DNA of 60,815 bases, counting the filler, from Globobulimina sp. (taxonomy: Eukaryota), in NCBI GenBank assembly GCA_003354225.1. It is 4 parts of 4 records of this genome, joined end to end, with 100 filler letters (N's around TTAATTAATTAA, not from the genome) between each part and the next. Parts side by side here need not be neighbours in the genome. Positions count along the whole stretch, not along the records: positions 46,256 to 60,815 come from PIVH01000007.1; 3 more parts are not named here. One strand, given 5' to 3'. The notes below the pieces were generated by a model that was not told the origin of the DNA, made no database searches, and saw only the letters and a program-made list of their open reading frames with translations. Numbering within the stretch: position 1 is the first letter of the stretch; the number at the start of each line of letters is the position of its first letter. Shown here in pieces: positions 11,739 to 60,815 of the stretch. Both the position numbers and the translations under genes were made by a program.

Positions 11739-11739
11739 A

Positions 11740-31075: not shown

Positions 31076-31175
31076 NNNNNNNNNNNNNNNNNNNNNNNNN
31101 NNNNNNNNNNNNNNNNNNNTTAATTAATTAANNNNNNNNNNNNNNNNNNNNNNNNNNNNNNNNNNNNNNNNNNNN
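31076..31175. other. Artificial contig spacer
   Basis: N-run, TTAATTAATTAA, N-run. Confidence 0.99.
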
Positions 31176-36610: not shown

Positions 36611-36683
36611 AGTCAGTTAATATAATTTACGTTTTGTTGAAAAACTTGCCAGGCAGTCCAGTCTCACTGAAAAATAAGTTTAA

Positions 36684-38001: not shown

Positions 38002-38029
38002 CAGACTCACTTTTTCACATTTACTTCCT

Positions 38030-46155: not shown

Positions 46156-46255
46156 NNNNNNNNNNNNNNNNNNNNNNNNNNNNNNNNNNNNNNNNNNNNT
46201 TAATTAATTAANNNNNNNNNNNNNNNNNNNNNNNNNNNNNNNNNNNNNNNNNNNN
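46156..46255. other. Artificial contig spacer
   Basis: N-run, TTAATTAATTAA, N-run. Confidence 0.99.
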
Positions 46256-46335
46256 CAACCAAATCCTGTGTTGTGACTGGATCTCCAGCGCGGGCATTTT
46301 CCCATAGGACCTTGACCACTCTTCGGGCTTCATCT
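46256..46335 (-). repeat. Copy of internal gag sequence (matches 58718-58797)
   Basis: 79/80 identical to 58718-58797; the single difference is 46307 G vs 58769 C. Confidence 0.95.
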
Positions 46336-46714
46336 ATTATCAAAAGCTAACAAATTCTCAATATTAACGTCATTTGGACTCGTAGATTCCGGATTTTTCG
46401 GTGTAGCTCCGGCTACCGTATTATTTTCGACCGATCTCGACGTTTTAGGCGTTTCTGACACCAAATCGCGACGATTCGAAATTTTATCTTGACGTTTGCT
46501 CTTCGTTTTCTCTGGCAAACCCGAGGCTAAACTACTCGACGATTTCGACACGTTTGCGCGTGTATTTGGACGTGGTAAACTACTATTAGGCGTATCCGTC
46601 ATAATTGTATCAGTTGGGGGTCGTTTTTGCAGTGTATTTTTCAGCAATTTCCGAGCACCTATCACGGTGTGGTACACGATGTATATATATGTAACACAAA
46701 ACAACGCAAGTCAA

Positions 46715-46723
46715 CTGCCACCA
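46715..46723 (-). promoter_or_regulatory. Primer-binding site, tRNA-Leu type
   Basis: TGGTGGCAG one nt after the LTR end ...GTTACA; complementary to the ...CUGCCACCA 3' end of eukaryotic tRNA-Leu(AAG/TAG). Confidence 0.75.
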
Positions 46724-46724
46724 C

Positions 46725-47784
46725 TGTAACAGTATTCTATGTATTGCTGTGATGTGGTCAAGTTGAGTACTATGAAGCCCAGCTCCGGAACTCAGATAAA
46801 TGACAACAACAACACACAGAAATCTGCTATGAATGATGGACGATGAATTACGATGTCGAGAGCAATATTAATAAATCGGCTCACTCAGAAAATACTAGAT
46901 CTATTCTGCATAGTAAAAGGTGTACCTGAGTTTTAACAAAACTTCTTTATGAGCACGGAATAAGTAGCAAAATAGAAATAAATAACTTGATGAATAATCA
47001 CCACAAAACCAATGACTCGTAACTGACAAATATAAAATGTATCAGAAAACAATTGAGAATTTTACAGTTCGTCAAGGCACTGCTCAATAATGATATGCAA
47101 ATATTATTTCGCACGGTAAAGATGGCAAGATGTCACGACAGAGACTTGGCGTCGCATAAATTAGCTTCTATTCTGGTCGGCATTTAAACTGCTACCGTAG
47201 ACGGTGGTGAAGTAATCATTTTGTTTTGGCATATGTCCTGCACATCAGCTGGCGGGAGTAACGATATTCTTCTCACATCTACGACGGCAGTGTTGATATG
47301 ACGCAGCACAGTTCTCATTTGCACTTGGTAATATTAATGCACTTTGATATTACATGCCTTCCTGCTAATCCTTTTAGCTTTCGGTCCTTGCCACCCCTCT
47401 GGAAGACTGAACAGTGTTTTGATGAACTAAAAATAGATTACATTTGAACAAATTCTTGACATTTAAGAAAAAGTAAACTTAACCTCCATGTATGTTACCA
47501 TGATGTTACCTTTAGAGATAAATTTAATTTAAATAAGCAAGAATTGCATAAGTTGGTAGCTTGATTTGATACTGTTTTTACCGAGTTGTCTTCTTCGTCA
47601 GGAGTTGATTCGAATGCTCTTGGTTGTTTTGTGTTGGTAACTTACCCCTAAGCTACTACTTATTAAGCTTGAACATGCAAAGATTTTTTAAAGAAAACAT
47701 GCAAAAAACACATGCAAAAACAATAACAAAACACTTATTTTTATGGACGTTATGTATTTTACAAAACTGGAATTTAATATTACA
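46725..47784 (-). repeat. Long terminal repeat (~1060 bp)
   Basis: Minus strand begins TGTAATA just after the PPT and ends TGTTACA just before the PBS (terminal inverted repeat 6/7). The partner LTR lies outside the window. Confidence 0.8.
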
Positions 47785-47786
47785 GA

Positions 47787-47799
47787 TCCCTCCCCTCCT
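47787..47799 (-). promoter_or_regulatory. Polypurine tract
   Basis: AGGAGGGGAGGGA on the minus strand, 2 nt before the TGTAA LTR start. Confidence 0.85.
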
Positions 47800-47922
47800 A
47801 TAAAAATCGGGGTACGGGACCCAACACATTGTTACGGGCCTTAAAAAGACGTTACAAAACAGAAAAATTTCTAACTACCAAATAGATTTCTTACAAAATT
47901 CCTAAATTGATTATGGGCACAA

Positions 47923-50900
47923 TCACTGAGTTTTCTTTTTCTTGGCCCAACTAATGGCACGAAAGCGGTACCATTCGACCAAATAACTTTGGTAAACACC
48001 ACGGTTACCTGTTTTTTGTTCAGTATAACTTTTTACCACTGCATCTTGTTCAATCAACATGGCATTTAGTTGTCTTTTTGTCATTGGAACCAGTGATGTA
48101 AACCAGTATTTGTCACATCTTTTGCGATCAGGTTCTCCTGATTCACTTTTAAGGTAAGATTCCATGTACTTGGGTATTTTCAACTTCAAAATTTGTTCCA
48201 ATGTGAATCCATGCCAATTGAATTCTAAGGCATGTTTACCTGATGCCATAGCTTCCTCGAATGATTTCGGTGTTGATACATTTGGTACAACCAAGTCATA
48301 TGTTTCTAACCATTGGGTAGGGTCATACTCCAAATTGGGTTCTTCAACTGGTTCATCTTCGTCAATTTCCATATCAACACTCTTTGTTGCCTCATTTGGC
48401 TCAGTTCTGACTTGTTCTGTTGTTTCCATCTGGATTTCATCCATCACCTTGCTAAGTCCACTCGGTCCAGCTTTTCCTTTCTTTTCAGTGATCTTTTCCA
48501 ATGTAGCTTCAATCACTTCTTTTCCTACCAGGCTGGTAATGATGTTCATTGCTTCAGCTGCTGTTGCTTTTACAGCCAAATCCACTTCAGCTACTGGAAT
48601 GAATGGACCTTGTTTTGCTCTTGCTTCTTCAGATGTTACAGTTTCAGCCATGTACCCAACATCATCTGGCAAAACTCCTGCGACTTCTTCTCCTTCTCTA
48701 TCTATTGGATTCACGTCATGAGCTGCCGACAAATTTTCGCGATAGAAGTGTGCTGATGCTTCAGGATCAGTGTTACATGATCCCCGTATTTCTACGCTGT
48801 TGTAACTGAAGCGATCTGGAAAGACAACATCTAAACCAAAAACATTACCTGTCTTATTTTCTTGCGTGATCAATTTGATATCCCGTGGTTGAGGCAATTG
48901 AACTTCCTCTTTCATTGCTTCTGGAAATTTTGAATCTTCAAACATCCATTTTTCCAGTGCATCAATTTTGCACATAGGTAATGGTCGATGTTCCCCATTT
49001 TTGGTTTCTGATTCCGTTCGAATAACACACAATGGTTTCATTTGATGTTTCTCATTGTACCAAAAGTTTCGATTATGTTCCGAGATCCTGATCCACGCTG
49101 CAACACCATCTTCAAACAATGCATGATTAGCCAGTGCCCAACGACTCAGTTGGTATAAAGGCAAACTGAGATCACCTGTCAAGGGATCACCAAGTATGAT
49201 TAAGGCTTGTTGATGACGGCTGGTTGCTACGTTGATCCGGTTTGGGCTTTGTAAAAATCCAGTGAACCAAACTTTGGTATATGTTGGTATGGTTGGATGG
49301 TCATAATTAGGATAATGACGTTCAAATTCTGGATCTGTTGAATTTCGTTCTGTCCGTTTGTACATTGACCAGAACTTAGCCAGATGGTCCATGCTTGCAC
49401 ATCGAACTGTAAGAAAGATCACGCATGGGTATTCTTGACCTTGTGCAGAGTCAACTGTTTTACAGTGTGGTCGTTTCTCAACATTATTCCAACGTTGTGC
49501 TAGCATTTCTTCTACAATTGCAACTGTTCCCGCATACGGTGTCAGAATCATGATTTCATCCGACGGGAATGCTTTCATTACCTCTCCGATGTACCAGACA
49601 AGCACTACAACTTGGCGAATTTGATTCGTATTGATCCTGCTTTCTCCATCAATACTTTCCTCTGTTCCTCTCACTGCCAAATATGCCAATGAAAACCCTT
49701 CAGTACCCCAAGGTAATCGCCAACCTGCCCAATCTTTTTCTTTCTGTTGTTGAACATTCAAACCCGTTTTCACCTTTCCTTCATAGAATGCTTCTGAGGT
49801 AAAATTTCCCATAACGGCGGATTGACGAAAGGTTTTGGTCAGCATTAGTGTGATAATTGTTGGTCTCACATTTGCAATTGGTACCACCAGCTTGTCAATG
49901 GCAGATTCTACCGTGTAAGGGGTTAATACTTTCTTCATAACCGGTCCTGGATCTTTTAATCTGGCTTGTGTGCTGACTGCGTACAATCGACCAGCTGCAG
50001 CATGAGCTTGAACCACTGGATCCAGTTGCATTGGATCTCCGCATAGCACAATTTGTCGGGCCACTTTGTCAGTTAACAATCTGCATGCAATGAAACTGTC
50101 CGTATCTGTAGCATATGAAGCTTCATCTGCTAACAATGTTGTGATGTTCAGATCTACATTGAACTTACCCAAGTACGCTTCACCTTGTTTAAAAGTCATG
50201 ATGATCAGATTGAATTTGCAGGATTTCATTACATCTCTGAACAGTGATGTTAGTTCTTCTTTTGCTCTTGCAACCAACTTCTTCTGTTTTTTCTGAAGTT
50301 TAAACCTGGAACCTGCATTGTTCTCGGTTGCCAAAAGGTCTGTAATTTCTTCCACTTCTTCCCAGACTCTGTAATAGGCTGCTCTGGTTATCATTACCGC
50401 AGGTACTGCTCCTTCATCTTTGAACATGTAATAATTGATTGAAATGCGTTCCACTTGTACATACGGTATTGGTAGTCCAAGAGCATCAATTGGTGTCAGC
50501 AATACAACACGGTACCGAGGTAAATCTTGAATTGTGATTCCTGATCTTCTAAGTTGGTTTGCCATACGAGCAATTCCATAATCCATCATTAAGACTGCTT
50601 TGGTACATAAGGCATAGGATGCTTCACGAGTTGGTGTAATTATGCCCACTACTTCTTGATGTCTGACTACTTTGTTATTGATGATTTTGGTGAAGCAAAC
50701 TCTTCCGTCATCATTGGCTAATTGGTCAAGAACTGCTTTTGCTAATGCCACTAATGTCAGTGATTTCCCAGTACCTGGTGGTCCAATTAGACTCAAAAGT
50801 ACTCGCAGTGCTGAAGTGTTGTCACTACAAGTTTCCAATGCGGCCTCTATAAAAATGTTTTGTTCATCAGTTAAAGAAATTGGCTCACCGTTTTTTCCTG

Positions 50901-53900
50901 CAAAACTGTACTGATCTGGATGCGTCGGTAATGGTGCCAAGTTATTGCTAAACTCCACTCCCAAAAAGGATGCAATACATTTATTCTTATTACTTGATTC
51001 CACTGCTACTGCTCCGGGCACTTGATCTCTTTTATCTCTCCTTCTGACTTTCTTTGGTAATTCTTTTTCTCTTTCTAATGAATTAAAAATATTGTTTTCC
51101 ATTACTTGATCGACCATGCGTTTCTGAGCTGTGTGACTCATAACAGGAGTTAATTGAACTGCAATCATGTCCGTTTTCTGGATCTTTTGAATGAATGGAA
51201 TGGCGGATACTGGATTCAATGCAAGTGTGATACGGCGTCCCGCAACTAACATTTCAACACCAGCCGGTGGAGGAAAGTCCGCTAGCAATCTTGGATCGGG
51301 CGTATCCAATTCGTTGGATGCCCATAATGGTCCTTCTTGGTCACGGATTAACTCTTCTGTAGCATACACCTGCTTTATTTGTGTTACAAAGGCATTGCCT
51401 CCAGGGATCTCGTCATTAATGATGAATTTTTGCACACCTTCTTCTGGCTCCATCACTGAATGTAACAATTTGATTGTCAATGGTTTATTAAGATGTACCG
51501 TAAACTGACCAATTGTTTTCTTCAGTGATTGTTGAGGAACGTAACGTGCTTTTGGTATGACAATTTCAAGAACCAGATTCGGATATCGATGTTTAACGAT
51601 TGCAGTAACGTTCAGTTTCAGATTCGCTGATCTCTTTCTGATAATACTTAATTCATTCAAAACCATTAGAGCATGTGCTCGGGAGTACATCATGACAATG
51701 AAATCAAAGTCTTTGAATTGAGGCCTAAGGTAGCGCCACATCTTAGGGATAAATTGCACACTGATTGGTGATGGAGTAGCCCAAGCGTACAATCGTTTCC
51801 AAGCTTCTTCTCCAATGATGCATTTTACTACTCGAGCTGTTGACAAATGAGTTTCATGTTTTGGATGTATTTCACCATCTTCCTCCGACGTATTACTATC
51901 AGTATTAGAAACTTCTCCTTCCCGGACTATTCGTCGTTCTCGGGGAATCATTGTAGTTGTTATTTGTGATGGTACATAATACATATAACAGAATGAACCA
52001 ACAGATGCTGTGTCTGCATTATATGTATCTTTCTGTGGAAATATACAACAGGGTCTCACTGACAAATACGTTTCTACTCCTTCTTCTGAGGGTACAACCA
52101 CATTCCACATTATGATATCCTTTGGGGTATCCGTTCCAGCGTATCGAATATCTGGTGCACGGTGTTCGTTACTTCTGACAAAATTTCTGATTACTCCAAT
52201 TGATTCTTCAATTCTTACCCGTCTGGTAAATTGTCCTGCTTCTGCATACATACGGCAATGAGTATCTCTTGGTAGTAAGAGTGGTCGTCCTGGCAATCCT
52301 TCGCCGTCCCAAACGTCGTACCGTTGGTCTTGTATTCTGACGCGTAGGATCACCATGTCATTTCGCACAAATTGAGTTGCATATGGTTGTTGGAAGTCCA
52401 CTGTTGTTCTATCCTCTTCACCTGAGCATGTAACATCTTCATTTACTGCTTTAAACCAGCATTTAAGGTATCCCTTTTTCTCCAATTGTTGTCCTTTGTA
52501 GTCTCTGATGTATGACAACCATCCAATATTAGAAAGGTGCATTGAATTCAACCCTGCAGTTTTTCGTAATGCAGAGATTCGACGCCACGATCCATCTGTG
52601 ATACGAAAGAATACCAATGTACTGGCATGTATAATTGTTGCTGTTACATCAAATGTGTTGATGTCGTCTGGCGGCTCGATGGCTGTACCAAACAAGAGTT
52701 GTCCTCCTATGGCGTCATTTGCTCTTTCCGGACCAGGTCCAAAAGATACAATTGAATCCCAATAGTTACCTGCTCTTGTGATTTCTGATTCCTGTAGCCA
52801 ATCTTCCACTCCGTTCGTTCTCATTGTTAATTCTTCGGGAGTTCCGTAGTATTCCAACAGAGTTGTATATGGTGATCGTCTCAATTGCGCAAGTTCCTCG
52901 TCCAATAGCAATCGGATAACCAATGCATTCCTAGCATTCTTGTTATGAATACTTCCAATTAGATCGTGTATCAATGGGATTTGATATTTGAAGTACAATG
53001 CTTTAATCCTCTGGAATGCTTGTTGAATATTTTCCGGTTCCGGTTGTAATGGCTGTTCTTCTAGTTTCTTTACTTCGATTGGTTTAATTGCCAATTTCTG
53101 TGGATTAATTTCCGGTATCCTCTCAATACATTTTTCCAGCAAATCTGCTTCCAGACCATTCAGAATGGCATACAATTGATCTTCTGGTACTTTCATTTGA
53201 ATTAATTTCTGAACGTGTTTGATTCGTTCTTCATCAGAAGCAGTTGAATTCGCAGCATATAACGTGTCGTCATACGATTCCCAGGTACGTGTCTGGATCT
53301 TCTTATTTCTGGATGGGATGACTAGACGTTTCCGTCCACATGGTTTTTCTGCAGGTTGATCTCTCACAACATGTTTTTCTGGATTCCCTTCCGTTGCAAA
53401 TATTGATTGACGGGCATTTGGTGCTTTATACGTGTTAGGCGCTCGTCCAATAGTGTCAATCCTGTCCCGATGACTGTCAAAAAGATTGGCATACCCGCTG
53501 GGATTAGGAAACTCGACTCCAGCATAACTGATAGTACCTTCTTCAGGTTGTATGCGGATACGAGGACGCTTAGCTTGTGCTTCGTCAGACTGTATTGGAG
53601 GCTCCATGACACGTTGAGCATCTTTTGGAATCCTTTTTGCTGGTGCAGTAATTGGTTCACTGGGATGACGACTAGGTTTTGCTGTGAAATCTGACTTGCC
53701 GGGTCGGTGTAGTGGGCTTTGGTACCGTATATTTTGTTGTCCATGACCAGGAACACGGAATGTTGATGATGACGTTGCTACTGGAACAGGTACTGTTGAT
53801 GCTGAGACGCTTTCAGTATCGGTATCCATTTGTTCTTCATATGTAATTTGTCTCTGTTGTTTCCTTTTTTCCCGTTTCTTTGCATTTTTACTCACCTGTT

Positions 53901-54393
53901 GATCTCCTTTTTTCTCAACAATTTTCTGCATTTGTGAGAAATTCTGGATTGGCATATACTTTTCAGTCAAATCAGGTTTCTTTTTAGTTGGTACTGGTGG
54001 TGGTACGGGTGCTTTTCCCTTTCTTGGTGGTTTTCCAAATGGATTTGCTGGTTGATTCATTGGTGGTGCACGAGGGATTTTCATTCTTTCCGCAAATAGG
54101 AAATTGGGATGTTTGTTGACCCAGTTGATTTGATCTTTACTTAATTCACATGTAAACACTTTATTTGGCACAATACCTTGTAACAACTCTGCACGATTAC
54201 TCAATAAATAATAACGTTGTGCCATAGTGGCCATACATACAACATCCAAATGACCCTGAATACCACATTTAGTACATGTACCCGTATTTTCACCGGTACC
54301 ATGCAAGACTCTACCACATGTGAGCGAAGCTGAATTTGGGATTCCCAACTCAAATTGGGTGAAAGTATCTTTGGGGGCATATACACCATACAT
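47923..54393 (-). CDS. CCHC zinc-knuckle + Upf1/DNA2-NAM7-like superfamily 1B helicase
   Basis: CTKCGIQGHLDVVC; Q-motif LTDEQ; Walker A GPPGTGKS (50761-50784); ITPTREA; DEAS (50116-50127); GDPMQLDP; LTKTFRQ..FYEG; ILTPY; TVDSAQGQE; RINVATSR. Confidence 0.92.
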   Translation of the reverse strand: MYGVYAPKDTFTQFELGIPNSASLTCGRVLHGTGENTGTCTKCGIQGHLDVVCMATMAQRYYLLSNRAELLQGIVPNKVFTCELSKDQINWVNKHPNFLFAERMKIPRAPPMNQPANPFGKPPRKGKAPVPPPVPTKKKPDLTEKYMPIQNFSQMQKIVEKKGDQQVSKNAKKREKRKQQRQITYEEQMDTDTESVSASTVPVPVATSSSTFRVPGHGQQNIRYQSPLHRPGKSDFTAKPSRHPSEPITAPAKRIPKDAQRVMEPPIQSDEAQAKRPRIRIQPEEGTISYAGVEFPNPSGYANLFDSHRDRIDTIGRAPNTYKAPNARQSIFATEGNPEKHVVRDQPAEKPCGRKRLVIPSRNKKIQTRTWESYDDTLYAANSTASDEERIKHVQKLIQMKVPEDQLYAILNGLEADLLEKCIERIPEINPQKLAIKPIEVKKLEEQPLQPEPENIQQAFQRIKALYFKYQIPLIHDLIGSIHNKNARNALVIRLLLDEELAQLRRSPYTTLLEYYGTPEELTMRTNGVEDWLQESEITRAGNYWDSIVSFGPGPERANDAIGGQLLFGTAIEPPDDINTFDVTATIIHASTLVFFRITDGSWRRISALRKTAGLNSMHLSNIGWLSYIRDYKGQQLEKKGYLKCWFKAVNEDVTCSGEEDRTTVDFQQPYATQFVRNDMVILRVRIQDQRYDVWDGEGLPGRPLLLPRDTHCRMYAEAGQFTRRVRIEESIGVIRNFVRSNEHRAPDIRYAGTDTPKDIIMWNVVVPSEEGVETYLSVRPCCIFPQKDTYNADTASVGSFCYMYYVPSQITTTMIPRERRIVREGEVSNTDSNTSEEDGEIHPKHETHLSTARVVKCIIGEEAWKRLYAWATPSPISVQFIPKMWRYLRPQFKDFDFIVMMYSRAHALMVLNELSIIRKRSANLKLNVTAIVKHRYPNLVLEIVIPKARYVPQQSLKKTIGQFTVHLNKPLTIKLLHSVMEPEEGVQKFIINDEIPGGNAFVTQIKQVYATEELIRDQEGPLWASNELDTPDPRLLADFPPPAGVEMLVAGRRITLALNPVSAIPFIQKIQKTDMIAVQLTPVMSHTAQKRMVDQVMENNIFNSLEREKELPKKVRRRDKRDQVPGAVAVESSNKNKCIASFLGVEFSNNLAPLPTHPDQYSFAGKNGEPISLTDEQNIFIEAALETCSDNTSALRVLLSLIGPPGTGKSLTLVALAKAVLDQLANDDGRVCFTKIINNKVVRHQEVVGIITPTREASYALCTKAVLMMDYGIARMANQLRRSGITIQDLPRYRVVLLTPIDALGLPIPYVQVERISINYYMFKDEGAVPAVMITRAAYYRVWEEVEEITDLLATENNAGSRFKLQKKQKKLVARAKEELTSLFRDVMKSCKFNLIIMTFKQGEAYLGKFNVDLNITTLLADEASYATDTDSFIACRLLTDKVARQIVLCGDPMQLDPVVQAHAAAGRLYAVSTQARLKDPGPVMKKVLTPYTVESAIDKLVVPIANVRPTIITLMLTKTFRQSAVMGNFTSEAFYEGKVKTGLNVQQQKEKDWAGWRLPWGTEGFSLAYLAVRGTEESIDGESRINTNQIRQVVVLVWYIGEVMKAFPSDEIMILTPYAGTVAIVEEMLAQRWNNVEKRPHCKTVDSAQGQEYPCVIFLTVRCASMDHLAKFWSMYKRTERNSTDPEFERHYPNYDHPTIPTYTKVWFTGFLQSPNRINVATSRHQQALIILGDPLTGDLSLPLYQLSRWALANHALFEDGVAAWIRISEHNRNFWYNEKHQMKPLCVIRTESETKNGEHRPLPMCKIDALEKWMFEDSKFPEAMKEEVQLPQPRDIKLITQENKTGNVFGLDVVFPDRFSYNSVEIRGSCNTDPEASAHFYRENLSAAHDVNPIDREGEEVAGVLPDDVGYMAETVTSEEARAKQGPFIPVAEVDLAVKATAAEAMNIITSLVGKEVIEATLEKITEKKGKAGPSGLSKVMDEIQMETTEQVRTEPNEATKSVDMEIDEDEPVEEPNLEYDPTQWLETYDLVVPNVSTPKSFEEAMASGKHALEFNWHGFTLEQILKLKIPKYMESYLKSESGEPDRKRCDKYWFTSLVPMTKRQLNAMLIEQDAVVKSYTEQKTGNRGVYQSYLVEWYRFRAISWAKKKKTQ

Positions 54394-55067
54394 TATTGTT
54401 TCAATTGGTTGTTGGTTGTCTTAGTGAAAGACATCAAAGTTACTCAGGACAACTATCCTGGAGTTGAAGACGGAGTATCTCAAAGAGTATCCCCTTAGAA
54501 AATTAACTAACCTTTGATGTTCACTGTTTGTTTCTTATATGTCTGAAATTAACAACCATTGTTAACTTGTTGGAATTTTTTAATTTGTACAACTCAATTA
54601 CTAGCTTTACACCAGTGGCGCCAAGGACATGAAAATTGTGTCGACCCAATCCTCATGCCATTTGCTCCTCTGGTTTTAGCTATGCGTGATGTTTCCTTAC
54701 TCATTACACTGTATGCTACAGACCCATGGAATTGGTGTTGGTCAGCGACCCATTATTGTATGCGAGATAACAGCACTGACTGATTGTGTGACTTGACTTC
54801 AGCATTACTCTAATCAATCGGATTCAATCACGTTCATTCAAATACAACTGATTGTTAAAAATAAATTTATTTAAAATCAATGTAATGTAAATCAAAGTAA
54901 AGTATGACAACAAACAAAAAATAGTCAACTTGACTAGTAAACTCAAATACTTCTACAAAAACACACACAACAACAAACAAAAAAAAGAAATTACAAAACT
55001 TTGTGATTTGTTAAAATTTACACAAATTGATAAAAATTTGTTAGTAACCTAATTTTTGTGCTACTTC

Positions 55068-58000
55068 CTATTGTTTTGCTTGGCGACCAGTGGAACCTTT
55101 TGGATTACCACTGTCTCCACCACGTTCCCGTTGAACTTGACGTTCTTTTTCGAATCGTTTCCATTGAACGTATTGTTGACTACTTGGACTAACCACACAT
55201 GGTTCACCGCATTTGCATTGGTCACAACATGCTTGTGAGAAATCCGTGCATTTTGCTCGACGTTGAAACTCTGCAATCGATGTTATTTCCCGTGGGTTTG
55301 TCACCATTGTTCCTTGTGGTGGATCGACAATTGAAACAGTCCCATCATCTCGTATGTTCCCATATATTTGATAGTATCGTCCCAACTCTTTCCCATTGTA
55401 CCGTCGGAAGTATTCTTGAACTAATGTCATTGGGACTTTTGGCCAAGCTTCTGCATCAGTTATTGGTGTTCCCTTGTTCTCGCCCTGTCGTTTCTTGTTT
55501 GCACCACGATTAAGTTCACGTGTGACATATCGTGTTATATTTTGTGTCCCTCTTGGTCCTTGTACTTCCCATCGATTTGGTTCTGGATCGGATGATCCTG
55601 CTGCTTGTGTCAAGGATGGAGACATTGGTGGCTCATTTCCGTACCTTGTGCTGTATGGACATGGTTTGAATTCAGAGCATGCTTGACACATCCATTCGAC
55701 ATTCGGGTCTTTGCAGAATTCCACATCGGGCCATGAAGCTGCAATCGTCGGTTCGGCATCATCAATCCCTTCCGCTTGTGCCCCATTTTGTAATTGTTGA
55801 TCTTGGTCATTCGTTATGAGTGCTCTTGCTTGATAATTTCGCACTACTGACATGGGGACATGAGGCCATGCTTGTTCATCCGTAATTTGTTGGCCACGAC
55901 TCTCGAAATATTCTCTTCGACGCAGTCCTCGATGAATTTCTCGTAATTCTTCGGTTGTTGGTGTCAAAGATTCTTGTAATTCTGGAGTTTCGTCGCTGTC
56001 TTGCTCTGGACATTCATGTCGCCAATGACCCTGAATATGACAAGTATGGCACACATAATCTGGTCCTGGCATAGTTGCTCTTCTTCTTCCATGCTGTTGT
56101 TGATGATTCATTGCTGCCATTTGAGCTTCTTGGTCTGCTTGACGTTGTACATATCTTCGCATTTGATTTTCTCTTCTTTGTCTTGTTCGTTCTATTTCTC
56201 CGAATAATCCAGGTAGTTGTAGAACACGTTGTCTTTCCCTTTCAGTGGCCCTGGCCATGTAAGCATTGAATTCATCCATTGTACCACTAACCGATTCTCC
56301 ATCTTCATTTGTCCATGCTGCCACTCCTCCTGGTGGAAATGCTTGTTCTAATTGTGGTTCTTCATGGATAAAGCCATTTAACACTTGTGATCTACGGACT
56401 TGTTCTTCTTCCATTGCAACTTCTGCAGCAAGATTCTCGATCGTACTGCCAACTGTTTGTCCCACTGCATTTGTCCAAGCCACTGTTCCCAATGGTCTAT
56501 CGCCAGTTTCAACATCATATCCAATTTGATCCAATAACCGTCTTCTAATTCTTCCATCTCGGGTCCTCAAACGTACTGGCCGTACTTGTTCTCTTTCCAC
56601 TGGTGGTTCTTCAGTTGCATCGACCATTACTCTTGCTGCTGGTGCAATGCGTCTTCTGGGTGGTCGTTGATCTTCTCTTGCCGCTGGTAATCTTTCTTCC
56701 GGTGCTCGTCTTCTATTTATTCTCAACAATGCTTCAATATCAACAACACGGTTACCCGGTATTGGTACTTCTGGTTCGGAAACTGCTTCCAACATAGTAC
56801 CCAATGTCTGATGGTAATGATCTTTGGATTCTTGTGTAAATTGTTTCCACTTCCCGGGTATTACCAAAGAGAGTGCAGCTGCTGATGCTAATGTTTCTCT
56901 CAATTGTTGATGATGGCCTTCATTTTGTCTTAGATTCTCATCAGTTTGTGTGCTTTCTTCCTTCCTCCCTTGTCTCTGACGACGGTTGTGTCTGTTCTTA
57001 GCACCATTTCTGATTTGGTTAATGTGCTGTAAATCTTGTGGAGACAAATGGTCAGATTCTTCTTCACTAGATTGCTCATCTTGTTGGAATCCTGGCATCT
57101 CTGCCCATGCAGCTGCAAGTCCTGAAGATGTACATCTGGCTCTTGGTCGTCCTAATTTGTATTCTTCTCCATACAATGCCATTGTTGACTTGACAAAATC
57201 AAGTTGAACGTTATGTTGCATTAACCAATCCAGTCCAAAAATAATCAATGGTAATCGTCGATCGTCTCGTACCACATGTACAGTTTGTTTGAAATGCAAT
57301 TCTCCAATGGCGAAAGACATTACGACTTTACCCAAAATTTTTATATTACCTCCAAAACCTGACATTACTGTATGATGACATGGTCGTATTGCAGACATGG
57401 GAATACCAAGAAGTTTACAAACAGACAATTGCGCAATACTAAGTCCCGATCCAGTATCAGCCAATGCTGCTAATTTACATATTTTAATACATCGCTGAAT
57501 TATACAAATTGCCATTTCCATGGGTTGTAACACAATTACAGAGTCAGGGTCTACTTCCTCCTCTGGCAAAACGGTCAATACAGTCGTATTCATCGTATCT
57601 TTGTCTAACCGATTCGGTCGGACTACTCTTGGTTCTGGTACTGGGGAAACAAGTTCGTTATTTACCTCAACCCAATTAGGGGTTACAGATCGATCCTTCA
57701 ACACAGTATCGGGTTGGGACACAGATGGTTTGGGTACCCAAACAGGTTTGTTATTAATAATCTTACACCGTTTATTTTTACTTGTACTACTGTTTGTATG
57801 TACACCACCTACTGCACCCAACGGTTCGCCAGTCATTTTGGCAAAACAAACCCCAAAATTGTCAATTGGTTCGATTGTTTCATTTACAGTACTCGACGCG
57901 ACACATTTTGCTCGGTAGGAGTCAGTATATTTCTTTTCTAACTCTTCTGACTCTCTTTTACGATGTTCCCTTTCTGATTTTTCAATTAAGGGTGTTAACC

Positions 58001-60815
58001 AATGGTCTTCGGTTAGCATCCCCCGTTTAGTAAAATAAACCCAGTTATCATAACATTCTTTAAAATGGGGAAATTCAATACCTGGCACTAAAAACAATGG
58101 TAAATCATCCCAGTTAGTTATTGGATAGCCACGCCCCGTTTCTACCGCAAATTGATGCAAATAATCTAAATACGCTATTGGTCCTTGACATACCTCGTCC
58201 TCTTCGTTCTTTAATTCGTATATAATTTTGTCAATTTCTTCTTTTGTTTCCGCGAATTTCCTTTCTGACTGTGGTTGGGTCGCAACAAACGAGTTGGCCC
58301 ATGCTGTTGCATGCAATTGTCGAGTCGGATTTTTCCCTGTTTGTTCACTGCTCTGATTCATTTTGTCTTTATTTGGACAATCTTGGCGCCAATGGCCCTT
58401 TTCTCCACATGTATGACATGTATATCCTGGACCTGGCGGTCCCCTTGGTCGTCTACTTGGCCCATATGATCGTCTCTGGTTTCCATATGGTGGTCGCCGT
58501 TGATTAATTTGAGCTGCTTGTTGAATCGAGTTTGGATTTCGAATGTTGATTCTGAGTACTCGTTCTTTTTCAACTGCACAGATATCCTTATCATACACAT
58601 TTGGAAAATATGCCATGGCTTGCATGCCGATGTATCTGGCAGCATTGCCTAAGCTACCATCCAGACAATAGGAAATTACTGTGTAGATGTTACCTTTGGA
58701 AAGTAATTTCAACTTTTCAACCAAATCCTGTGTTGTGACTGGATCTCCAGCGCGGGCATTTTCCCATACGACCTTGACCACTCTTCGGGCTTCATCTGAT
58801 GCAATTGCTTTCAAATCTTTTTCATTTGCCACTACAAATGGTGCCTGAGCGTCTTGCGTTACGGAAAATTTGTCCTTCCGTGGGGCTGTTGTAGCAACAT
58901 TGACTGGAAACAATGAGTATTCTGGTCTTTCCTCTGCAATGGTACGGAGCCCTACTGGTCGTCTCACTACTGGTTGTTCAATATTTGGAGCCAATTGCAT
59001 TGTATTGCGAATGCGTTTGGCCATTTTTGCCCAATTTGGTTCATCCATTCCTGCCAAATACTGTTGGACTGTTGGAAGATCTTCTGAATTTACTTTGCGT
59101 TGAAATTCTCTACACATTCGTCCATTTCTGTTGAACATAAATTCTTTAGGTGGATGAGCACTATCAAAAAAAACTCTAAAAACATTTAAAAACTCGAACA
59201 ATGGCATAGTGCCTTGCATTAATTTATCGTAAGCATCAGCTTGTGCGCCTCTGTCGCACGATGCATTACCGTACCGGTCTCTCAATTTAGTAATGACCAT
59301 GTGGGGTCGAAATTTTTCTCCCATTTGTGAGTGTATTTGTTTGTATATTTTCTTTGGTGCCCCTGACAAAAAATAAAATAGGTATTCTTCAAAATAATTA
59401 CGGTCACCCTGTAATGTACATACAATACGTGCATCGTCAATCCATGATTCCAAATTCTCACCTTGCAATCCCGAAAAAATTAATTCTGGAGTCACAACTT
59501 TATGATCGAATTTAATACGATGTTGTTTGATGCGAATGGTTCGGTCGCCTTGTGCTACCCCTGGGTGTGGTGTTCGTTCCCGCGGAGCTCTTGCATTAAA
59601 TTCTGTAGGGTCATGTTGACTGTTGCCCCTAGTGCCATCTCGATCACTCTGTATCGATATGATGGACTTTCGCGATTGTGAACTTTGATCTAATTTACTT
59701 TGTCTATAAGAATAATCGGGATTGTCATTCGATTTCTCTGGGATTGTATTATCTCTAGGTATTTTCCCTTGACTTTCAGGCGCCCAGTAATACTTTCCTG
59801 AATCAACTGTATTATCGGTTCTGGCCTTTCTCAAACCGTCATGAGTACTGTTCGAACGACTTTTGGCTTGGGGCACATGTACATTTTGGTCTAACGAATT
59901 CGACCGATTTGCACCTGTACCGTCAGCCAATTGTCTCGATGCTGCAATCAATGACTTTTGAAAATGGCCCAAATCGATAGGCTTTTGTTGACTGCTAGTA
60001 CTTTTAACAGTTCTCATAGACGTATACTTTTTATTCAACGGGGGTATAGATGGATCGATCTGTCCCGGTTGAGATAAATGTTTCCCCAAATTACCTGAAC
60101 CATTAGCAGTTGGTCGTTTTGAAATCGGCGATTGTACTGGATTAATCGATCTCGATGAATGTTGAGTCTCTTTAGATACATTTTGACCAATTGGTACTGG
60201 ACCGTTTTGACATTGAGGCTTGACCCGATATTTTTTTGTCAAATCCTTACTTGAATGGTCTTTTTGATTGTCGATTGTCGATTGTGATTGAGGTTGATTT
60301 CTGAAAGAAGTTTGTATTACTTGAGCGGCAGGGTCCGAAATTAAAGACTGCACTAATTTATTTGTTGACTGTAAACGACCTTTGAGTTCTGTATTCTCTG
60401 CTGTTAGTACTGTTTGCTTTTTAAATAATTGGTCCTGATTTTGCGTCAAAAGACCGTTCGCGGAATCAACAACGTTTTTAGCACGGCATAATTTAGCATT
60501 ATCGTCATTTTTCTTTTGAATTATGTCTTGGTACATATTGTCAAGATCTTGTTTATTTCGTCTTTCATTTGACAAATCTGTACAATTTTGCGCATGCGTC
60601 AATTTTAGTCGATCATTTTCTTTTTTCAAACGTTCAATTTCTTTTCGACTGTCTAATTCGGCCGGCGTCAGAACTGACGGTTCTGGATTCGATTGATTTC
60701 GCGACATTGTGCCCGATCGATTGAACAAATTCGAAACTCTGCCCGTAAGATTTTCGACAAACCCGATTCTGGTCGATTGAGAAATCGGTTTACTCGTTAT
60801 TATCGATGGTGAATT
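55068..60815 (-). CDS. Gag-protease polyprotein (coiled coil, capsid-like region, 2 CCHC knuckles, retropepsin), 5' truncated
   Basis: FSGLQGENLESWI..LSGAPK..LRDRY..LMQG capsid-like region; CHTCGEKGHWRQDC (58377-58418); LADTGSGLS (DTG 57450-57458) with IIFGLDWL; second knuckle 56010-56051. The frame is open to 60815. Confidence 0.88.
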   Translation of the reverse strand, partial: NSPSIITSKPISQSTRIGFVENLTGRVSNLFNRSGTMSRNQSNPEPSVLTPAELDSRKEIERLKKENDRLKLTHAQNCTDLSNERRNKQDLDNMYQDIIQKKNDDNAKLCRAKNVVDSANGLLTQNQDQLFKKQTVLTAENTELKGRLQSTNKLVQSLISDPAAQVIQTSFRNQPQSQSTIDNQKDHSSKDLTKKYRVKPQCQNGPVPIGQNVSKETQHSSRSINPVQSPISKRPTANGSGNLGKHLSQPGQIDPSIPPLNKKYTSMRTVKSTSSQQKPIDLGHFQKSLIAASRQLADGTGANRSNSLDQNVHVPQAKSRSNSTHDGLRKARTDNTVDSGKYYWAPESQGKIPRDNTIPEKSNDNPDYSYRQSKLDQSSQSRKSIISIQSDRDGTRGNSQHDPTEFNARAPRERTPHPGVAQGDRTIRIKQHRIKFDHKVVTPELIFSGLQGENLESWIDDARIVCTLQGDRNYFEEYLFYFLSGAPKKIYKQIHSQMGEKFRPHMVITKLRDRYGNASCDRGAQADAYDKLMQGTMPLFEFLNVFRVFFDSAHPPKEFMFNRNGRMCREFQRKVNSEDLPTVQQYLAGMDEPNWAKMAKRIRNTMQLAPNIEQPVVRRPVGLRTIAEERPEYSLFPVNVATTAPRKDKFSVTQDAQAPFVVANEKDLKAIASDEARRVVKVVWENARAGDPVTTQDLVEKLKLLSKGNIYTVISYCLDGSLGNAARYIGMQAMAYFPNVYDKDICAVEKERVLRINIRNPNSIQQAAQINQRRPPYGNQRRSYGPSRRPRGPPGPGYTCHTCGEKGHWRQDCPNKDKMNQSSEQTGKNPTRQLHATAWANSFVATQPQSERKFAETKEEIDKIIYELKNEEDEVCQGPIAYLDYLHQFAVETGRGYPITNWDDLPLFLVPGIEFPHFKECYDNWVYFTKRGMLTEDHWLTPLIEKSEREHRKRESEELEKKYTDSYRAKCVASSTVNETIEPIDNFGVCFAKMTGEPLGAVGGVHTNSSTSKNKRCKIINNKPVWVPKPSVSQPDTVLKDRSVTPNWVEVNNELVSPVPEPRVVRPNRLDKDTMNTTVLTVLPEEEVDPDSVIVLQPMEMAICIIQRCIKICKLAALADTGSGLSIAQLSVCKLLGIPMSAIRPCHHTVMSGFGGNIKILGKVVMSFAIGELHFKQTVHVVRDDRRLPLIIFGLDWLMQHNVQLDFVKSTMALYGEEYKLGRPRARCTSSGLAAAWAEMPGFQQDEQSSEEESDHLSPQDLQHINQIRNGAKNRHNRRQRQGRKEESTQTDENLRQNEGHHQQLRETLASAAALSLVIPGKWKQFTQESKDHYHQTLGTMLEAVSEPEVPIPGNRVVDIEALLRINRRRAPEERLPAAREDQRPPRRRIAPAARVMVDATEEPPVEREQVRPVRLRTRDGRIRRRLLDQIGYDVETGDRPLGTVAWTNAVGQTVGSTIENLAAEVAMEEEQVRRSQVLNGFIHEEPQLEQAFPPGGVAAWTNEDGESVSGTMDEFNAYMARATERERQRVLQLPGLFGEIERTRQRRENQMRRYVQRQADQEAQMAAMNHQQQHGRRRATMPGPDYVCHTCHIQGHWRHECPEQDSDETPELQESLTPTTEELREIHRGLRRREYFESRGQQITDEQAWPHVPMSVVRNYQARALITNDQDQQLQNGAQAEGIDDAEPTIAASWPDVEFCKDPNVEWMCQACSEFKPCPYSTRYGNEPPMSPSLTQAAGSSDPEPNRWEVQGPRGTQNITRYVTRELNRGANKKRQGENKGTPITDAEAWPKVPMTLVQEYFRRYNGKELGRYYQIYGNIRDDGTVSIVDPPQGTMVTNPREITSIAEFQRRAKCTDFSQACCDQCKCGEPCVVSPSSQQYVQWKRFEKERQVQRERGGDSGNPKGSTGRQAKQ

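What the first reader, a model, noticed from the sequence alone, without database searches (positions are those of the whole stretch)
46725..60815. LTR retroelement with no RT/RNase H/integrase but an intact 2156-aa Upf1-like helicase: candidate new non-autonomous capsid-plus-helicase element
Seen: between the protease and the PPT/LTR there is no YxDD RT, RNase H or HHCC/DDE integrase in either long ORF. Yet both ORFs (>1900 and 2156 codons) are uninterrupted and the cis signals (PBS, PPT, LTR termini) are intact. The second ORF sits in the env-like position and has all SF1B motifs of the Upf1/MOV10/Armitage/SDE3/ZNFX1 group plus its own CCHC knuckle. Established: this helicase group includes host anti-retroelement and RNA-silencing factors, and helicases reported in some retrotransposons are of the viral SF1 type. 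Inference: an element that builds its own particle, borrows Pol in trans, and carries a captured cellular-type helicase as a silencing/NMD antagonist or RNP remodeller.
Basis: partly seen in the sequence, partly recalled or inferred. Interest (0 to 1): 0.88.

Follow-up and report, generated by a model that had tools for sequence, protein, structure and literature searches.

The report
Pol-less LTR element carrying giant helicase
A 14.6-kb stand-alone contig carries a retrovirus-like mobile element that has a capsid-like gene, a protease and one long terminal repeat but no reverse transcriptase or integrase, and instead a very large, conserved Upf1-type helicase gene; only part of the element is visible, so whether it truly lacks its own copying enzymes is still open.

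Summary
The sequence features are real. On the minus strand there are two uninterrupted ORFs. ORF1 is 1915 codons and open at the contig end. It has two CCHC knuckles and a DTGS retropepsin. ORF2 is 2165 codons stop to stop, 2156 from the first Met. It has one CCHC knuckle and a complete Upf1-like SF1B helicase core.

ORF2 is followed by a polypurine tract and a 1060-bp TG..CA repeat. A TGG-initiated PBS-like block comes directly after that repeat. No RT, RNase H or integrase is detectable in either long ORF or in the 10 largest other-frame ORFs.

Three limits apply:
- The window is four contigs joined by artificial linkers, and the element is a stand-alone 14,560-nt contig with no genomic flank.
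- Only one LTR is present, and the visible PBS lies after it, leading into the 5' part of another variant.
- The 5' end is missing.

A family exists. 205 related contig pieces were laid in one run. 30 of the 40 listed differences are synonymous, and dN/dS is about 0.08 against a 71%-identical relative.

The helicase has no close cellular donor. My best reading is an LTR-retroelement family, probably non-autonomous, carrying a long-maintained accessory helicase. It is a new variant of a known kind, and its autonomy is unresolved.

The parts
46256..60815 (-). Whole stand-alone contig (14,560 nt) that holds the finding. It is separated from the rest of the window by an artificial linker at 46156-46255.
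   Evidence: N runs and linker; GC 0.41 in the ORFs against 0.315 in the left pieces; no blastn similarity to the other three pieces.
55068..60815 (-). ORF1, 1915 codons, open at the contig end. First Met at 60707. Stop TAG at 55070-55068.
58548..59513 (-). Gag-like, predicted all-helical region (ORF1 aa 435-756). It includes a strongly conserved block at aa 608-756.
   Evidence: P0159 is 29% identical over aa 435-636 and 67% identical over aa 608-756; low-confidence all-alpha model. The capsid fold is not shown.
58377..58418 (-). CCHC zinc knuckle 1 (ORF1 aa 800-813).
   Evidence: zf-CCHC_2 3.2e-11, zf-CCHC 4.3e-5.
57153..57500 (-). Retropepsin-like aspartyl protease (ORF1 aa 1106-1221). DTGS at 57458-57447.
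   Evidence: Asp_protease 1.5e-3, below cut-off; retroviral-like aspartic protease 1, 1.3e-3; 9-11 related contigs cover the active-site codons.
56010..56051 (-). CCHC zinc knuckle 2 (ORF1 aa 1589-1602).
55401..55943 (-). ORF1 C-terminal region with a duplicated 40-aa motif (55943-55824 and 55520-55401), each followed by a Cys-rich patch. Function unknown.
   Evidence: 45% identity, E 3e-10 pairwise; CxxC at aa 1710 and 1864.
54421..55067 (-). AT-rich non-coding spacer between ORF1 and ORF2 (GC 0.33). The part from 54667 down to ORF2 is shared with 5 other contigs, whose sequence upstream of that point differs.
   Evidence: table 7 (loose end at 54667, 5 contigs).
47923..54420 (-). ORF2, 2165 codons stop to stop, 2156 aa from the Met at 54393. 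Stop TGA at 47925-47923.
54235..54276 (-). CCHC-pattern knuckle at ORF2 aa 49-62. This is a pattern match only; there is no Pfam hit.
49021..50838 (-). Upf1-like SF1B helicase core (ORF2 aa about 1195-1800). Walker A at 50784-50761, DEAS at 50127-50116, and an insertion of about 45 aa between motifs V and VI.
   Evidence: (alignment to NAM7/Upf1 covering motifs I, II/III, IV-V and VI); the insertion is conserved in P0007.
47787..47799 (-). Polypurine tract, 2 nt upstream of the LTR.
   Evidence: Read.
46725..47784 (-). The single LTR copy, 1060 nt, with TGTAA...TTACA termini.
   Evidence: Read. No second copy was found.
46694..46735 (-). LTR end plus a PBS-like block (TGG start at 46723). It is conserved in at least 8 other contigs whose sequences differ on either side.
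   Evidence: table 7 (loose ends at 46692, 46694 and 46735 in X1, and at 46694 in X2).
46256..46693 (-). 5' part of another variant: a leader, an ATG at 46602, a 90-codon ORF, then, out of frame, an 80-nt copy of the conserved gag block (46335-46256 matches 58797-58718, 99%). The contig ends here.

Best explanation
This contig is the 3' 13-14 kb of a member of an LTR-retroelement family, plus the start of a neighbouring or collapsed variant.

The internal region encodes two proteins. The first is a Gag-like/zinc-knuckle/retropepsin polyprotein. The second, in the env position, is a 2156-aa protein whose core is a catalytically complete Upf1-like SF1B helicase. There is no reverse transcriptase, RNase H or integrase in the visible part.

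Shown:
- the ORFs and their domains;
- the PPT and the LTR with TG..CA ends;
- the PBS-like block after the LTR;
- the existence of diverged relatives;
- strong purifying selection on the helicase.

Inferred:
- The element is transcribed from an upstream LTR.
- ORF1 makes and processes a particle protein.
- ORF2 is expressed from a spliced or internally initiated RNA.
- cDNA synthesis and integration depend on RT/IN supplied in trans by a related autonomous element that recognises the same PBS, PPT and LTR ends.
- The helicase acts on the element's own RNA or RNP. It could remodel RNA for packaging or export. It could also protect a genomic RNA whose ORF1 stop is followed by more than 7 kb, a classic trigger of nonsense-mediated decay (NMD).
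For: - Two uninterrupted ORFs of 1915 and 2165 codons.
- Domains: zf-CCHC_2 3.2e-11, DTGS with weak Asp_protease and ASPRV1 matches, AAA_12 6.9e-25, AAA_11 1.4e-8.
- The helicase aligns to Upf1/NAM7 across motifs I to VI with the catalytic residues present (E 1.7e-10). Its nearest NCBIfam model is the IGHMBP2 family. Atlas neighbours all carry AAA_11/AAA_12.
- No RT, RNase H or IN family at E<=1 in either long ORF or in the 10 largest of the 33 other-frame ORFs of at least 70 aa, and no YxDD.
- PPT, then a TG..CA 1060-nt repeat, then a TGG block, then a leader, an ATG and a gag block.
- Family: in run X1, 205 contig pieces were laid on the contig. By identity class they number 20 at >=99%, 11 at 95-99%, 64 at 90-95% and 110 below 90%. 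All 30 of 30 bins are covered.
- Of the 40 best-supported differences listed (170 more were not shown), 30 are synonymous and 28 fall on third codon positions.
- A 2144-nt contig from another assembly (L001) carries a decayed homologue of the helicase: 77% aa identity by tblastn, 71% DNA identity, dN/dS about 0.08 over 259 codons.
- Further family fragments are P0006 (79%), P0007 (43%) and P0159 (gag-like).
Against: - Only one LTR is visible, there is no target-site duplication, and the 5' end is missing. ORF1 is open to the contig end, so more coding sequence could lie upstream.
- No autonomous partner was found or could be sought, because no genome is held.
- The contig comes from a short-read-type assembly. 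Unitigs of X1 break at 54194-54223 and 54820-54840, inside or near the spacer (table 8). The ORF1-ORF2 link therefore rests on the assembler's path, although the depths on both sides are alike (7.6-8.1).
- If X1 is a mixed sample, the 'diverged copies' could be orthologues in related organisms rather than paralogous copies.
- The Gag assignment rests on position, the knuckle and predicted helices. There is no Pfam Gag family hit and no fold match.
- The protease matches are below the curated cut-offs.
Confidence: 0.5

Rival explanations
1. The element is autonomous, or is part of a much larger giant LTR element. Its RT/RNase H/IN ORF lies outside this 14.6-kb contig, upstream of the visible part of ORF1 or in a variant region. 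The 'pol-less' look would then be an artefact of a truncated view.
For: - ORF1 is open to the contig end, with 36 open codons before the first Met.
- The 108 nt before that Met contain no PBS-like block, whereas in the post-LTR variant the ATG comes about 120 nt after the PBS.
- Giant planarian Burro elements carry polyproteins of more than 4800 aa with many accessory domains as well as PR-RT-RH-IN (PMC6431247, passages read).
Against: - In all described LTR elements pol follows gag and PR. Here the protease is followed by 700 aa without RT, a stop, a spacer, the helicase ORF, and then the PPT and LTR. A pol gene would therefore have to lie 5' of gag, an order that to my recollection has not been described.
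- 36 open codons have roughly a 10% chance of arising in sequence of this composition, so they are weak evidence (my estimate).
Confidence: 0.2
2. The contig is an assembly mosaic. A gag-protease element and a separate helicase-bearing unit, either another element or a gene, were joined through low-complexity or repeated sequence in the spacer, just as the contig clearly runs through the LTR into a different variant.
For: - The contig demonstrably continues from the LTR into a non-identical variant and ends in an 80-nt repeat of its own gag block.
- X1 unitigs break in the spacer, and 5 contigs diverge upstream of 54667.
- The protease site is covered by 9-11 related contigs, while helicase sites are covered by 1-5, so the two modules differ in abundance (table 3).
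Against: - Identical unitigs of similar depth (7.25-8.96) tile the contig from 46696 to 60605, apart from 49189-50653 and 55764-56871, for which no identical piece is among the listed rows (225 more pieces not shown) (table 8).
- The loose-end consensus of the 5 contigs at 54667 agrees at 0.67. That looks like a diverged homologous spacer rather than random flanks.
- Both ORFs share the same GC (0.41 and 0.415) and the same strand.
Confidence: 0.12
3. ORF2, with or without ORF1, is a host gene or a domesticated retroelement-derived gene family rather than part of a mobile element. The related contigs would then be orthologues or paralogues under ordinary purifying selection.
For: - dN/dS is about 0.08 with saturated dS, and differences are mostly synonymous. 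This fits any constrained gene.
- The exact variant has depth of about 8, like a single-copy sequence.
Against: - ORF2 is directly followed by a PPT and a TG..CA repeat, which is itself followed by a PBS-like block, a leader and a gag start.
- The PBS block occurs in at least 8 contigs with differing flanks.
- The L001 homologue is decayed, with an in-frame stop and truncation.
- There are no introns in 6.5 kb, whereas the other contigs of the window show multi-exon-like ORF series.
Confidence: 0.08
4. It is an integrated or episomal genome of a non-retroviral virus that happens to encode a protease, zinc knuckles and an SF1 helicase.
For: - SF1 helicases and proteases are common in RNA viruses.
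- There is no RT.
- The contig stands alone without host flanks.
Against: - The helicase is of the AAA_11/AAA_12 type and has no Viral_helicase1 hit.
- The protease is a D-T-G retropepsin.
- PPT, LTR and PBS syntax is present.
- No polymerase of any kind was found.
- Two scans of viral contigs found no relatives.
Confidence: 0.04

Closest known systems
Non-autonomous LTR retrotransposons that keep part of their coding capacity, for example TelKA2n of the bdelloid rotifer Adineta vaga (PMC5408684, passage read). ETn/MusD, BARE-2 and LARDs are recalled examples.
   Same: An LTR element that lacks most or all of pol but retains other ORFs, and is presumed to be mobilised by a related autonomous element.
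   Different: Here both remaining ORFs are very long and intact. The retained extra ORF is a 2156-aa helicase rather than an env-like gene. No partner is known.
Retrotransposons with acquired viral SF1 helicase domains in insects (Lazareva 2015 and Morozov 2017, as summarised in PMC6338049; passages read).
   Same: A helicase with a full motif set carried by a retroelement, for which an accessory role and a link to RNA silencing were proposed.
   Different: Those helicases are alphavirus-like viral SF1 domains fused to RT-bearing elements. This one matches AAA_11/AAA_12 (Upf1-like), has no PF01443 hit, is a separate ORF, and sits in an element without a visible RT.
Giant Ty3/gypsy-like Burro elements of planarians, and LTR elements of bdelloid rotifers with extra ORF3s (PMC6431247; PMC5408684).
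   Same: Very long retroelement ORFs with zinc knuckles and many accessory domains, and modular sharing of extra ORFs between element lineages.
   Different: Burro and the rotifer families carry PR-RT-RH-IN. The accessory functions listed in the passages I read are env, GDSL esterase, DEDDy exonuclease, dUTPase, BIR, MATH, ankyrin, Smc and midasin-like. A helicase is not among them.
Cellular Upf1-like SF1B helicases (UPF1/NAM7, IGHMBP2, HELZ2, SEN1, Aquarius).
   Same: The same Pfam families and the same motifs I to VI. The best solved relatives are NAM7/UPF1.
   Different: Similarity is weak: at most 41.8 bits to any PDB chain, and about 30-35% identity over RecA2 to the best non-family proteins. 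There is no UPF1 CH-domain hit. The 1150-aa N-terminal and 370-aa C-terminal regions have no detectable relatives. The protein is encoded inside an LTR element.
Helitron RepHel proteins.
   Same: A large SF1B-helicase protein (over 1500 aa) encoded by a mobile element, sometimes with N-terminal zinc-finger-like motifs (PMC6431247).
   Different: There is no Helitron_like_N or PIF1 hit. Here the helicase is flanked by a gag/protease ORF and a PPT/LTR.

Membership tests
LTR retrotransposon / Metaviridae-like element | Two direct long terminal repeats flanking the internal region | tested here: inconclusive
   One 1060-nt LTR is present (46725-47784). No second copy is in the contig or the window. 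The 5' end is off the contig.
LTR retrotransposon / Metaviridae-like element | LTR termini TG...CA with a short inverted repeat | tested here: met
   TGTAA...TTACA, read.
LTR retrotransposon / Metaviridae-like element | Polypurine tract immediately upstream of the 3' LTR | tested here: met
   A 13-nt purine run at 47799-47787, 2 nt before the LTR.
LTR retrotransposon / Metaviridae-like element | tRNA primer-binding site just after the 5' LTR | tested here: inconclusive
   A TGG-initiated block lies 1 nt after the LTR and is conserved in at least 8 contigs. No host tRNA was available to test complementarity: there are 0 tRNAs in the window. The resemblance of its first 9 nt to a tRNA-Leu 3' end is recalled only.
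LTR retrotransposon / Metaviridae-like element | Gag with capsid fold and CCHC nucleocapsid knuckle | tested here: inconclusive
   The knuckle is met (zf-CCHC_2 3.2e-11). The capsid fold is not shown: there is no Pfam Gag family, the model has pLDDT 43.9, and no fold match has E<=0.001.
LTR retrotransposon / Metaviridae-like element | Retropepsin (D-T/S-G) protease | tested here: met
   DTGS at aa 1120. Asp_protease 1.5e-3 is below the cut-off. Retroviral-like aspartic protease 1 matches at 1.3e-3. Support is weak but consistent.
LTR retrotransposon / Metaviridae-like element | Reverse transcriptase with a YxDD motif | tested here: not met
   No RVT family at E<=1 in the two long ORFs or in the 10 largest of the 33 other-frame ORFs of at least 70 aa. 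No [YF]xDD motif. This covers only the visible 14.6 kb.
LTR retrotransposon / Metaviridae-like element | RNase H and DDE integrase | tested here: not met
   No RNase_H, RT_RNaseH, rve or Integrase zinc-domain hit. No HHCC pattern.
LTR retrotransposon / Metaviridae-like element | Target-site duplication | not testable with these tools
   The contig has no host flank.
Upf1-like SF1B helicases (Pfam AAA_11 + AAA_12) | Both Pfam domains above the gathering score | tested here: met
   AAA_12 88.2 bits and AAA_11 35.3 bits, against a cut-off of 27.
Upf1-like SF1B helicases (Pfam AAA_11 + AAA_12) | Helicase motifs I, II, III, IV, V and VI with catalytic residues | tested here: met
   The alignment to NAM7 shows GPPGTGKS, DEAS, GDPMQL, FRQ, TPY..VDSAQGQE and GFL..R.NVA.SR.
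UPF1 orthologue proper | N-terminal CH zinc-binding domain and close identity to UPF1 | tested here: not met
   No UPF1 zinc-domain family is in the Pfam list. At most 41.8 bits to NAM7, over about 150 aa.
Viral SF1 helicase domains of insect retrotransposons | Match to Viral_helicase1 (PF01443) | tested here: not met
   Absent from the Pfam list at E<=1.
Helitron RepHel | HUH Rep domain (Helitron_like_N) plus a Pif1-type helicase | tested here: not met
   Neither family was hit at E<=1.
Non-autonomous LTR element | Lacks pol but shares LTR ends, PBS and PPT with an autonomous partner in the same genome | not testable with these tools
   Lack of pol is met for the visible part. The partner search was impossible: no genome is held and the protein databases gave no RT-linked relative.

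The most novel reading that the evidence does not exclude
A lineage of LTR retroelements has lost reverse transcriptase, RNase H and integrase altogether. Over a long evolutionary time (saturated dS, dN/dS about 0.08) it has kept a particle gene plus a giant Upf1-like helicase. It would propagate as a 'capsid-plus-helicase' hyperparasite of autonomous retroelements. The helicase would serve the element's own RNA, for packaging or for evasion of NMD or RNA silencing, rather than being a recent capture from the host.
Probability: 0.3. Interest if true: 0.75.

Novelty: new variant of a known kind. Interest (0 to 1): 0.55.

Why it matters
If confirmed with full-length copies, this would be the first LTR retroelement family I could find in print whose main cargo is a Upf1-like helicase. 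Five full-text searches found only viral-SF1 helicase domains in insect retrotransposons and Helitron helicases.

Upf1-like helicases (UPF1, MOV10 and relatives) are host factors that both restrict and assist retroelements; this is established knowledge, recalled here. An element-encoded one would be a natural handle on how retroelement RNAs escape nonsense-mediated decay and silencing.

It would also show that a non-autonomous element can keep 12 kb of coding sequence under selection.

If instead the pol gene lies just off the contig, the element is a further example of giant LTR elements with accessory domains. That would be interesting but incremental.

Tried and rejected
- **Whole-genome search for other copies or a partner:** no genome is held.
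- **Earlier scan notes:** nothing by place, sequence or words.
- **Viral-contig scans with ORF1 and ORF2:** no relatives.
- **ORF1 aa 430-1915 against near-length proteins:** 0 hits among 6575 candidates.
- **ORF2 against near-length proteins:** only 3 remote AAA_11/12 helicases among 7873 candidates.
- **Exact look-up of the window's own ORF products:** not in the collection.
- **ESM Atlas on ORF2 aa 380-1150:** no usable hit.
- **AlphaFold2 on ORF2 aa 560-1160, single sequence:** mean pLDDT 31.0, unusable.
- **AlphaFold2 on ORF1 aa 430-800 with one homologue:** pLDDT 43.9, all-alpha. The Foldseek PDB search of that model gave no match with E<=0.001. Neither the capsid fold nor a hidden enzyme fold could be tested.
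- **Rfam on the whole window:** 0 matches, so no hammerhead or other ribozyme that would point to a Penelope/Terminon-like element.
- **tRNA scan:** 0 tRNAs.
- **Bacterial promoter and terminator scan of the LTR:** uninformative.
- **Comparison of the post-LTR piece with ORF1:** only the 80-nt block is shared, so it is not simply this element's own 5' end.
- **RNA evidence:** no RNA holder is listed. Run X2 is labelled 'RNA?' as a guess only. It has a different organism code and study and holds short pieces of the helicase ORF, for example 582 nt with 3 differences. I do not count this as expression evidence.
- **X3 and X4 (same sample code as X1):** they held next to nothing. This is no evidence either way.
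- **Named-reference helicase phylogeny (Upf1, MOV10, ZNFX1, ERI-6/7, viral SF1):** not done.
- **Repbase and Dfam:** could not be searched.
- **Supplementary files of the papers:** not seen.

Full report
**What the window is**

The 60,815-nt window is not one genomic stretch. Three identical artificial linkers (44 N, a 12-nt all-frame stop spacer, 44 N) lie at 15924-16023, 31076-31175 and 46156-46255. They join four contigs of 15.9, 15.1, 15.0 and 14.6 kb.

The finding is the whole fourth contig, 46256-60815 (14,560 nt). It shares no blastn similarity with the other three pieces. Its ORFs have GC 0.41, against 0.315 for the pieces to its left. The AT-rich, intron-bearing genes left of 46156 are therefore not its flank, and the contig shows no host DNA at either end. 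No whole genome is held for the window.

**The observation**

On the minus strand there are two long uninterrupted frames.

ORF1 (55068-60815, 1915 codons) runs off the contig end. Its first Met is codon 37 (60707).

With about 0.06 stops expected per random codon at this composition (my estimate), neither frame can be open by chance.

Pfam results for the two ORFs:
- ORF1: zf-CCHC_2 (3.2e-11), zf-CCHC (4.3e-5), and sub-threshold aspartyl-protease families (Asp_protease 1.5e-3, 19.1 bits against a cut-off of 26).
- ORF2: AAA_12 (6.9e-25), AAA_11 (1.4e-8) and weaker P-loop families.

Pattern checks:
- CCHC at ORF1 aa 800 and 1589, and at ORF2 aa 49.
- DTGS at ORF1 aa 1120.
- GPPGTGKS at ORF2 aa 1213 and DEAS at aa 1432.
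- No [YF]xDD and no HHCC pattern in either ORF.

No RT, RNase H, integrase, tyrosine-recombinase or transposase family appears at E<=1 in either long ORF. None appears in the 10 largest of the 33 other-frame ORFs of at least 70 aa in the contig. The only non-coding stretches are a 650-nt spacer and the LTR region, so the visible part has no room for a decayed pol gene.

**Cis signals**

These were read, on the minus strand. ORF2 stops at 47925-47923. A 13-nt purine run (47799-47787) follows. Two nt later a 1060-nt segment (47784 to 46725) begins TGTAA and ends TTACA. One nt after its end comes a TGG-initiated block (46723 onward).

This is the syntax PPT, LTR, PBS. But the LTR is the only copy. 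The PBS-like block lies after it, so it is the PBS of whatever follows, not of the element that holds ORF1 and ORF2.

What follows is a leader of about 120 nt, an ATG at 46602 and a 90-codon ORF unrelated to the visible part of ORF1. After that, out of frame, comes an 80-nt copy (99%) of a block from inside ORF1 (46335-46256 matches 58797-58718). The contig ends there.

The simplest reading is that the assembler ran through a shared LTR into the 5' part of another variant and stopped in a repeat. A real tandem LTR-internal-LTR-internal array is also possible. Either way the piece is useful. It shows that in this family an LTR is followed by a PBS-like block, a short leader and a gag-type ORF. 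It also shows that the helicase ORF is followed by the PPT and the same LTR.

**A family, and selection**

One public run (X1) holds 99% of the sampled words of ORF2.

When its contigs were laid on the element contig at 85% or more likeness, 205 pieces were placed. Twenty were at least 99% alike, 11 were 95-99%, 64 were 90-95% and 110 were below 90%. All 30 bins were covered.

Identical unitigs of depth 7.25-8.96 cover most of 46696-60605. For 49189-50653 and 55764-56871 no identical piece is among the listed rows, and 225 more pieces were not shown. The other pieces are diverged relatives.

The LTR-end and PBS block (46694-46735) is shared by at least 8 contigs whose sequence differs on either side (loose ends at 46692, 46694 and 46735). 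The protease active-site codons are covered by 9-11 related contigs. Helicase sites are covered by 1-5.

Of the 40 best-supported differences printed (170 more were not shown), 37 lie in ORF2 and 3 in ORF1. Thirty are synonymous and 28 fall on third codon positions.

One caveat applies. If X1 is a mixed sample, some 'copies' may be orthologues in related organisms rather than paralogues in one genome.

**Relatives elsewhere**

An exhaustive HMMER pass with the helicase core (ORF2 aa 1130-1830) over 1.84 billion cluster representatives gave 1394 proteins at E<=0.001, but only 2 at E<=1e-30:
- P0006: 182 aa, 79% identical.
- P0007: 357 aa, 43% identical over aa 1580-1797. It includes the unusual insertion of about 45 aa between motifs V and VI.

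Both sit on small NCBI contigs. The next hits drop to E about 1e-16 to 1e-13 and are generic AAA_11/AAA_12 proteins.

The contig behind P0006 was fetched as L001. Its homologue carries an in-frame stop. Similarity ends after about 260 codons and is followed by AT-rich unrelated sequence, so it is a decayed or truncated copy.

Between L001 and the window, DNA identity is 71%. Nei-Gojobori dN is 0.18 and dS is 2.2 (saturated). dN/dS is about 0.08 over 259 codons.

ORF1 has one detectable relative, P0159 (730 aa, NCBI contig of 6 kb). It is 29% identical over ORF1 aa 435-636 and 67% identical over aa 608-756. Its zinc knuckle sits before that block instead of after it. The same 608-756 block is the one repeated at the contig end, so it is the most conserved part of the gag-like protein.

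No RT-containing relative of ORF1 was found:
- 0 hits among 6575 near-length candidates.
- 1 hit among 7504 shorter candidates, with no Pfam RT.

These word-seeded searches see only fairly close relatives.

**What the helicase is**

The best solved relatives are yeast and human Upf1/NAM7 (E 1.7e-10 to 7e-7), then a '5'-3' RNA helicase-like protein', SEN1 and Aquarius.

The printed alignment to NAM7 covers motif I, motifs II and III, motifs IV and V, and motif VI, with the catalytic residues in place.

The nearest NCBIfam model is the IGHMBP2 family (7.9e-12, far below its cut-off). The ten listed Atlas feature neighbours all carry AAA_11/AAA_12; the first is labelled HELZ2-like.

There is no hit to Viral_helicase1, PIF1 or Helitron_like_N.

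It is thus a predicted active Upf1-like SF1B helicase, but a very divergent one with no identifiable cellular donor. 'Captured' can only mean an ancient acquisition.

The 1150 aa before the core and the 370 aa after it have no detectable relatives or families.

**Parts I could not resolve**

Single-sequence structure prediction failed for ORF2 aa 560-1160 (pLDDT 31.0). It was poor for the gag-like region (pLDDT 43.9, all helices), and no fold match had E<=0.001. 'Gag' therefore rests on position, the knuckle, helical content and the downstream retropepsin.

ORF1's last 700 aa contain the second knuckle and a duplicated 40-aa motif (45% identity), each copy followed by a Cys-rich patch. Their function is unknown.

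**How it most likely works**

Shown: the anatomy, the family and the selective constraint.

Inferred:
- A genomic RNA runs from an upstream LTR.
- ORF1 yields a Gag-like protein processed by its own retropepsin.
- ORF2 is translated from a spliced or internally initiated RNA. The last 270 nt or so of the spacer are conserved among variants, and an acceptor-like TTTCAG lies near 54545.
- Reverse transcription and integration are done by enzymes of a related autonomous element that shares the PBS, PPT and LTR ends.
- The helicase works on the element's own RNP. A genomic RNA whose first stop codon is followed by more than 7 kb is a textbook NMD substrate. Retroviruses are known to need protection from Upf1, and to use it (recalled knowledge). 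My preferred role is therefore RNA remodelling and protection, rather than an anti-silencing role.

I give the whole reading about 0.5. The rivals are a pol gene off the contig (0.2), an assembly mosaic (0.12), a host or domesticated gene (0.08) and a non-retroviral virus (0.04).

**Comparison with what is in print**

Five full-text searches found no LTR element with an Upf1-like helicase ORF and none with a gag-protease-helicase layout.

The nearest described cases are:
- Viral SF1 helicase domains fused to RT-bearing insect retrotransposons (PMC6338049, passages).
- Rotifer LTR families with swapped ORF3s, and a non-autonomous family, TelKA2n, that kept its env-like ORF (PMC5408684, abstract and passages).
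- Giant planarian Burro elements with many accessory domains but a normal PR-RT-RH-IN (PMC6431247, passages).

Repbase, Dfam and the papers' supplements were not available, so prior description in a repeat library cannot be excluded.

**Verdict**

Its key claims remain untested: a complete element, trans-mobilisation, recent capture and an antagonist role.

I rate it a new variant of a known kind, namely a non-autonomous or accessory-gene-bearing LTR retroelement. Interest is 0.55.

Noticed in passing
window 15924-16023, 31076-31175, 46156-46255: The window is four size-ordered contigs (15.9, 15.1, 15.0 and 14.6 kb) joined by identical artificial linkers (44 N, a 12-nt all-frame stop spacer, 44 N). 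Neighbouring pieces are therefore not genomic neighbours.
   Followed up: yes
window 6753-15923 (-): Two adjacent very long minus-strand frames (1665 and 1411 codons). The second runs into the linker, that is, to the contig end. Neither has any Pfam family at E<=0.001. This is a large protein of unknown kind in a 28-30% GC contig.
   Followed up: partly
window 34751-36616 (-): A 621-codon frame with a DNA_pol_A_exo1 3'-5' exonuclease domain (1.6e-16) followed by a SAM domain (4.8e-6). It is a Mut-7/WRN-exonuclease-like architecture, on a different contig from the element.
   Followed up: no
window 22820-25330 (-): An 836-codon frame with a protein kinase domain (4.2e-28). Its match spans aa 310-685, which suggests a large insert in the kinase domain.
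   Followed up: no
window 36684-45825 (+): A series of nine consecutive plus-strand frames separated by gaps or frame changes of up to about 200 nt, mostly under 75 nt. It looks like one long multi-exon gene with very short introns. The two largest exons gave no Pfam hit.
   Followed up: no
window 58548-58992 (ORF1 aa 608-756) and 46256-46335: Conservation along the gag-like protein is mosaic. This block is 67% identical to P0159, while the adjacent region is 29% identical, and P0159 has its zinc knuckle on the other side of the block. The same block is what the contig end repeats.
   Followed up: partly
window 49180-49330 (ORF2 aa about 1675-1720): An insertion of about 45 aa between helicase motifs V and VI is absent from Upf1/NAM7. 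It is conserved in the 43%-identical relative P0007.
   Followed up: partly
window 55401-55943 (ORF1 C-terminus): A 40-aa motif is duplicated (45% identity). Each copy lies downstream of a basic stretch and upstream of a Cys-rich patch. No family match.
   Followed up: partly
window 49310-50371: A run with a different organism code and study (X2, 2021) holds short contigs of the helicase ORF at up to 99.5% identity (582 nt with 3 differences). The same or a very close element therefore occurs in a second data set.
   Followed up: partly
L001 581-583 and 794-2144: The 71%-identical helicase homologue on this 2144-nt contig has one in-frame stop. It loses similarity after about 260 codons and continues as AT-rich sequence without long ORFs. 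It is a decayed or truncated copy, or an intron-interrupted one.
   Followed up: partly
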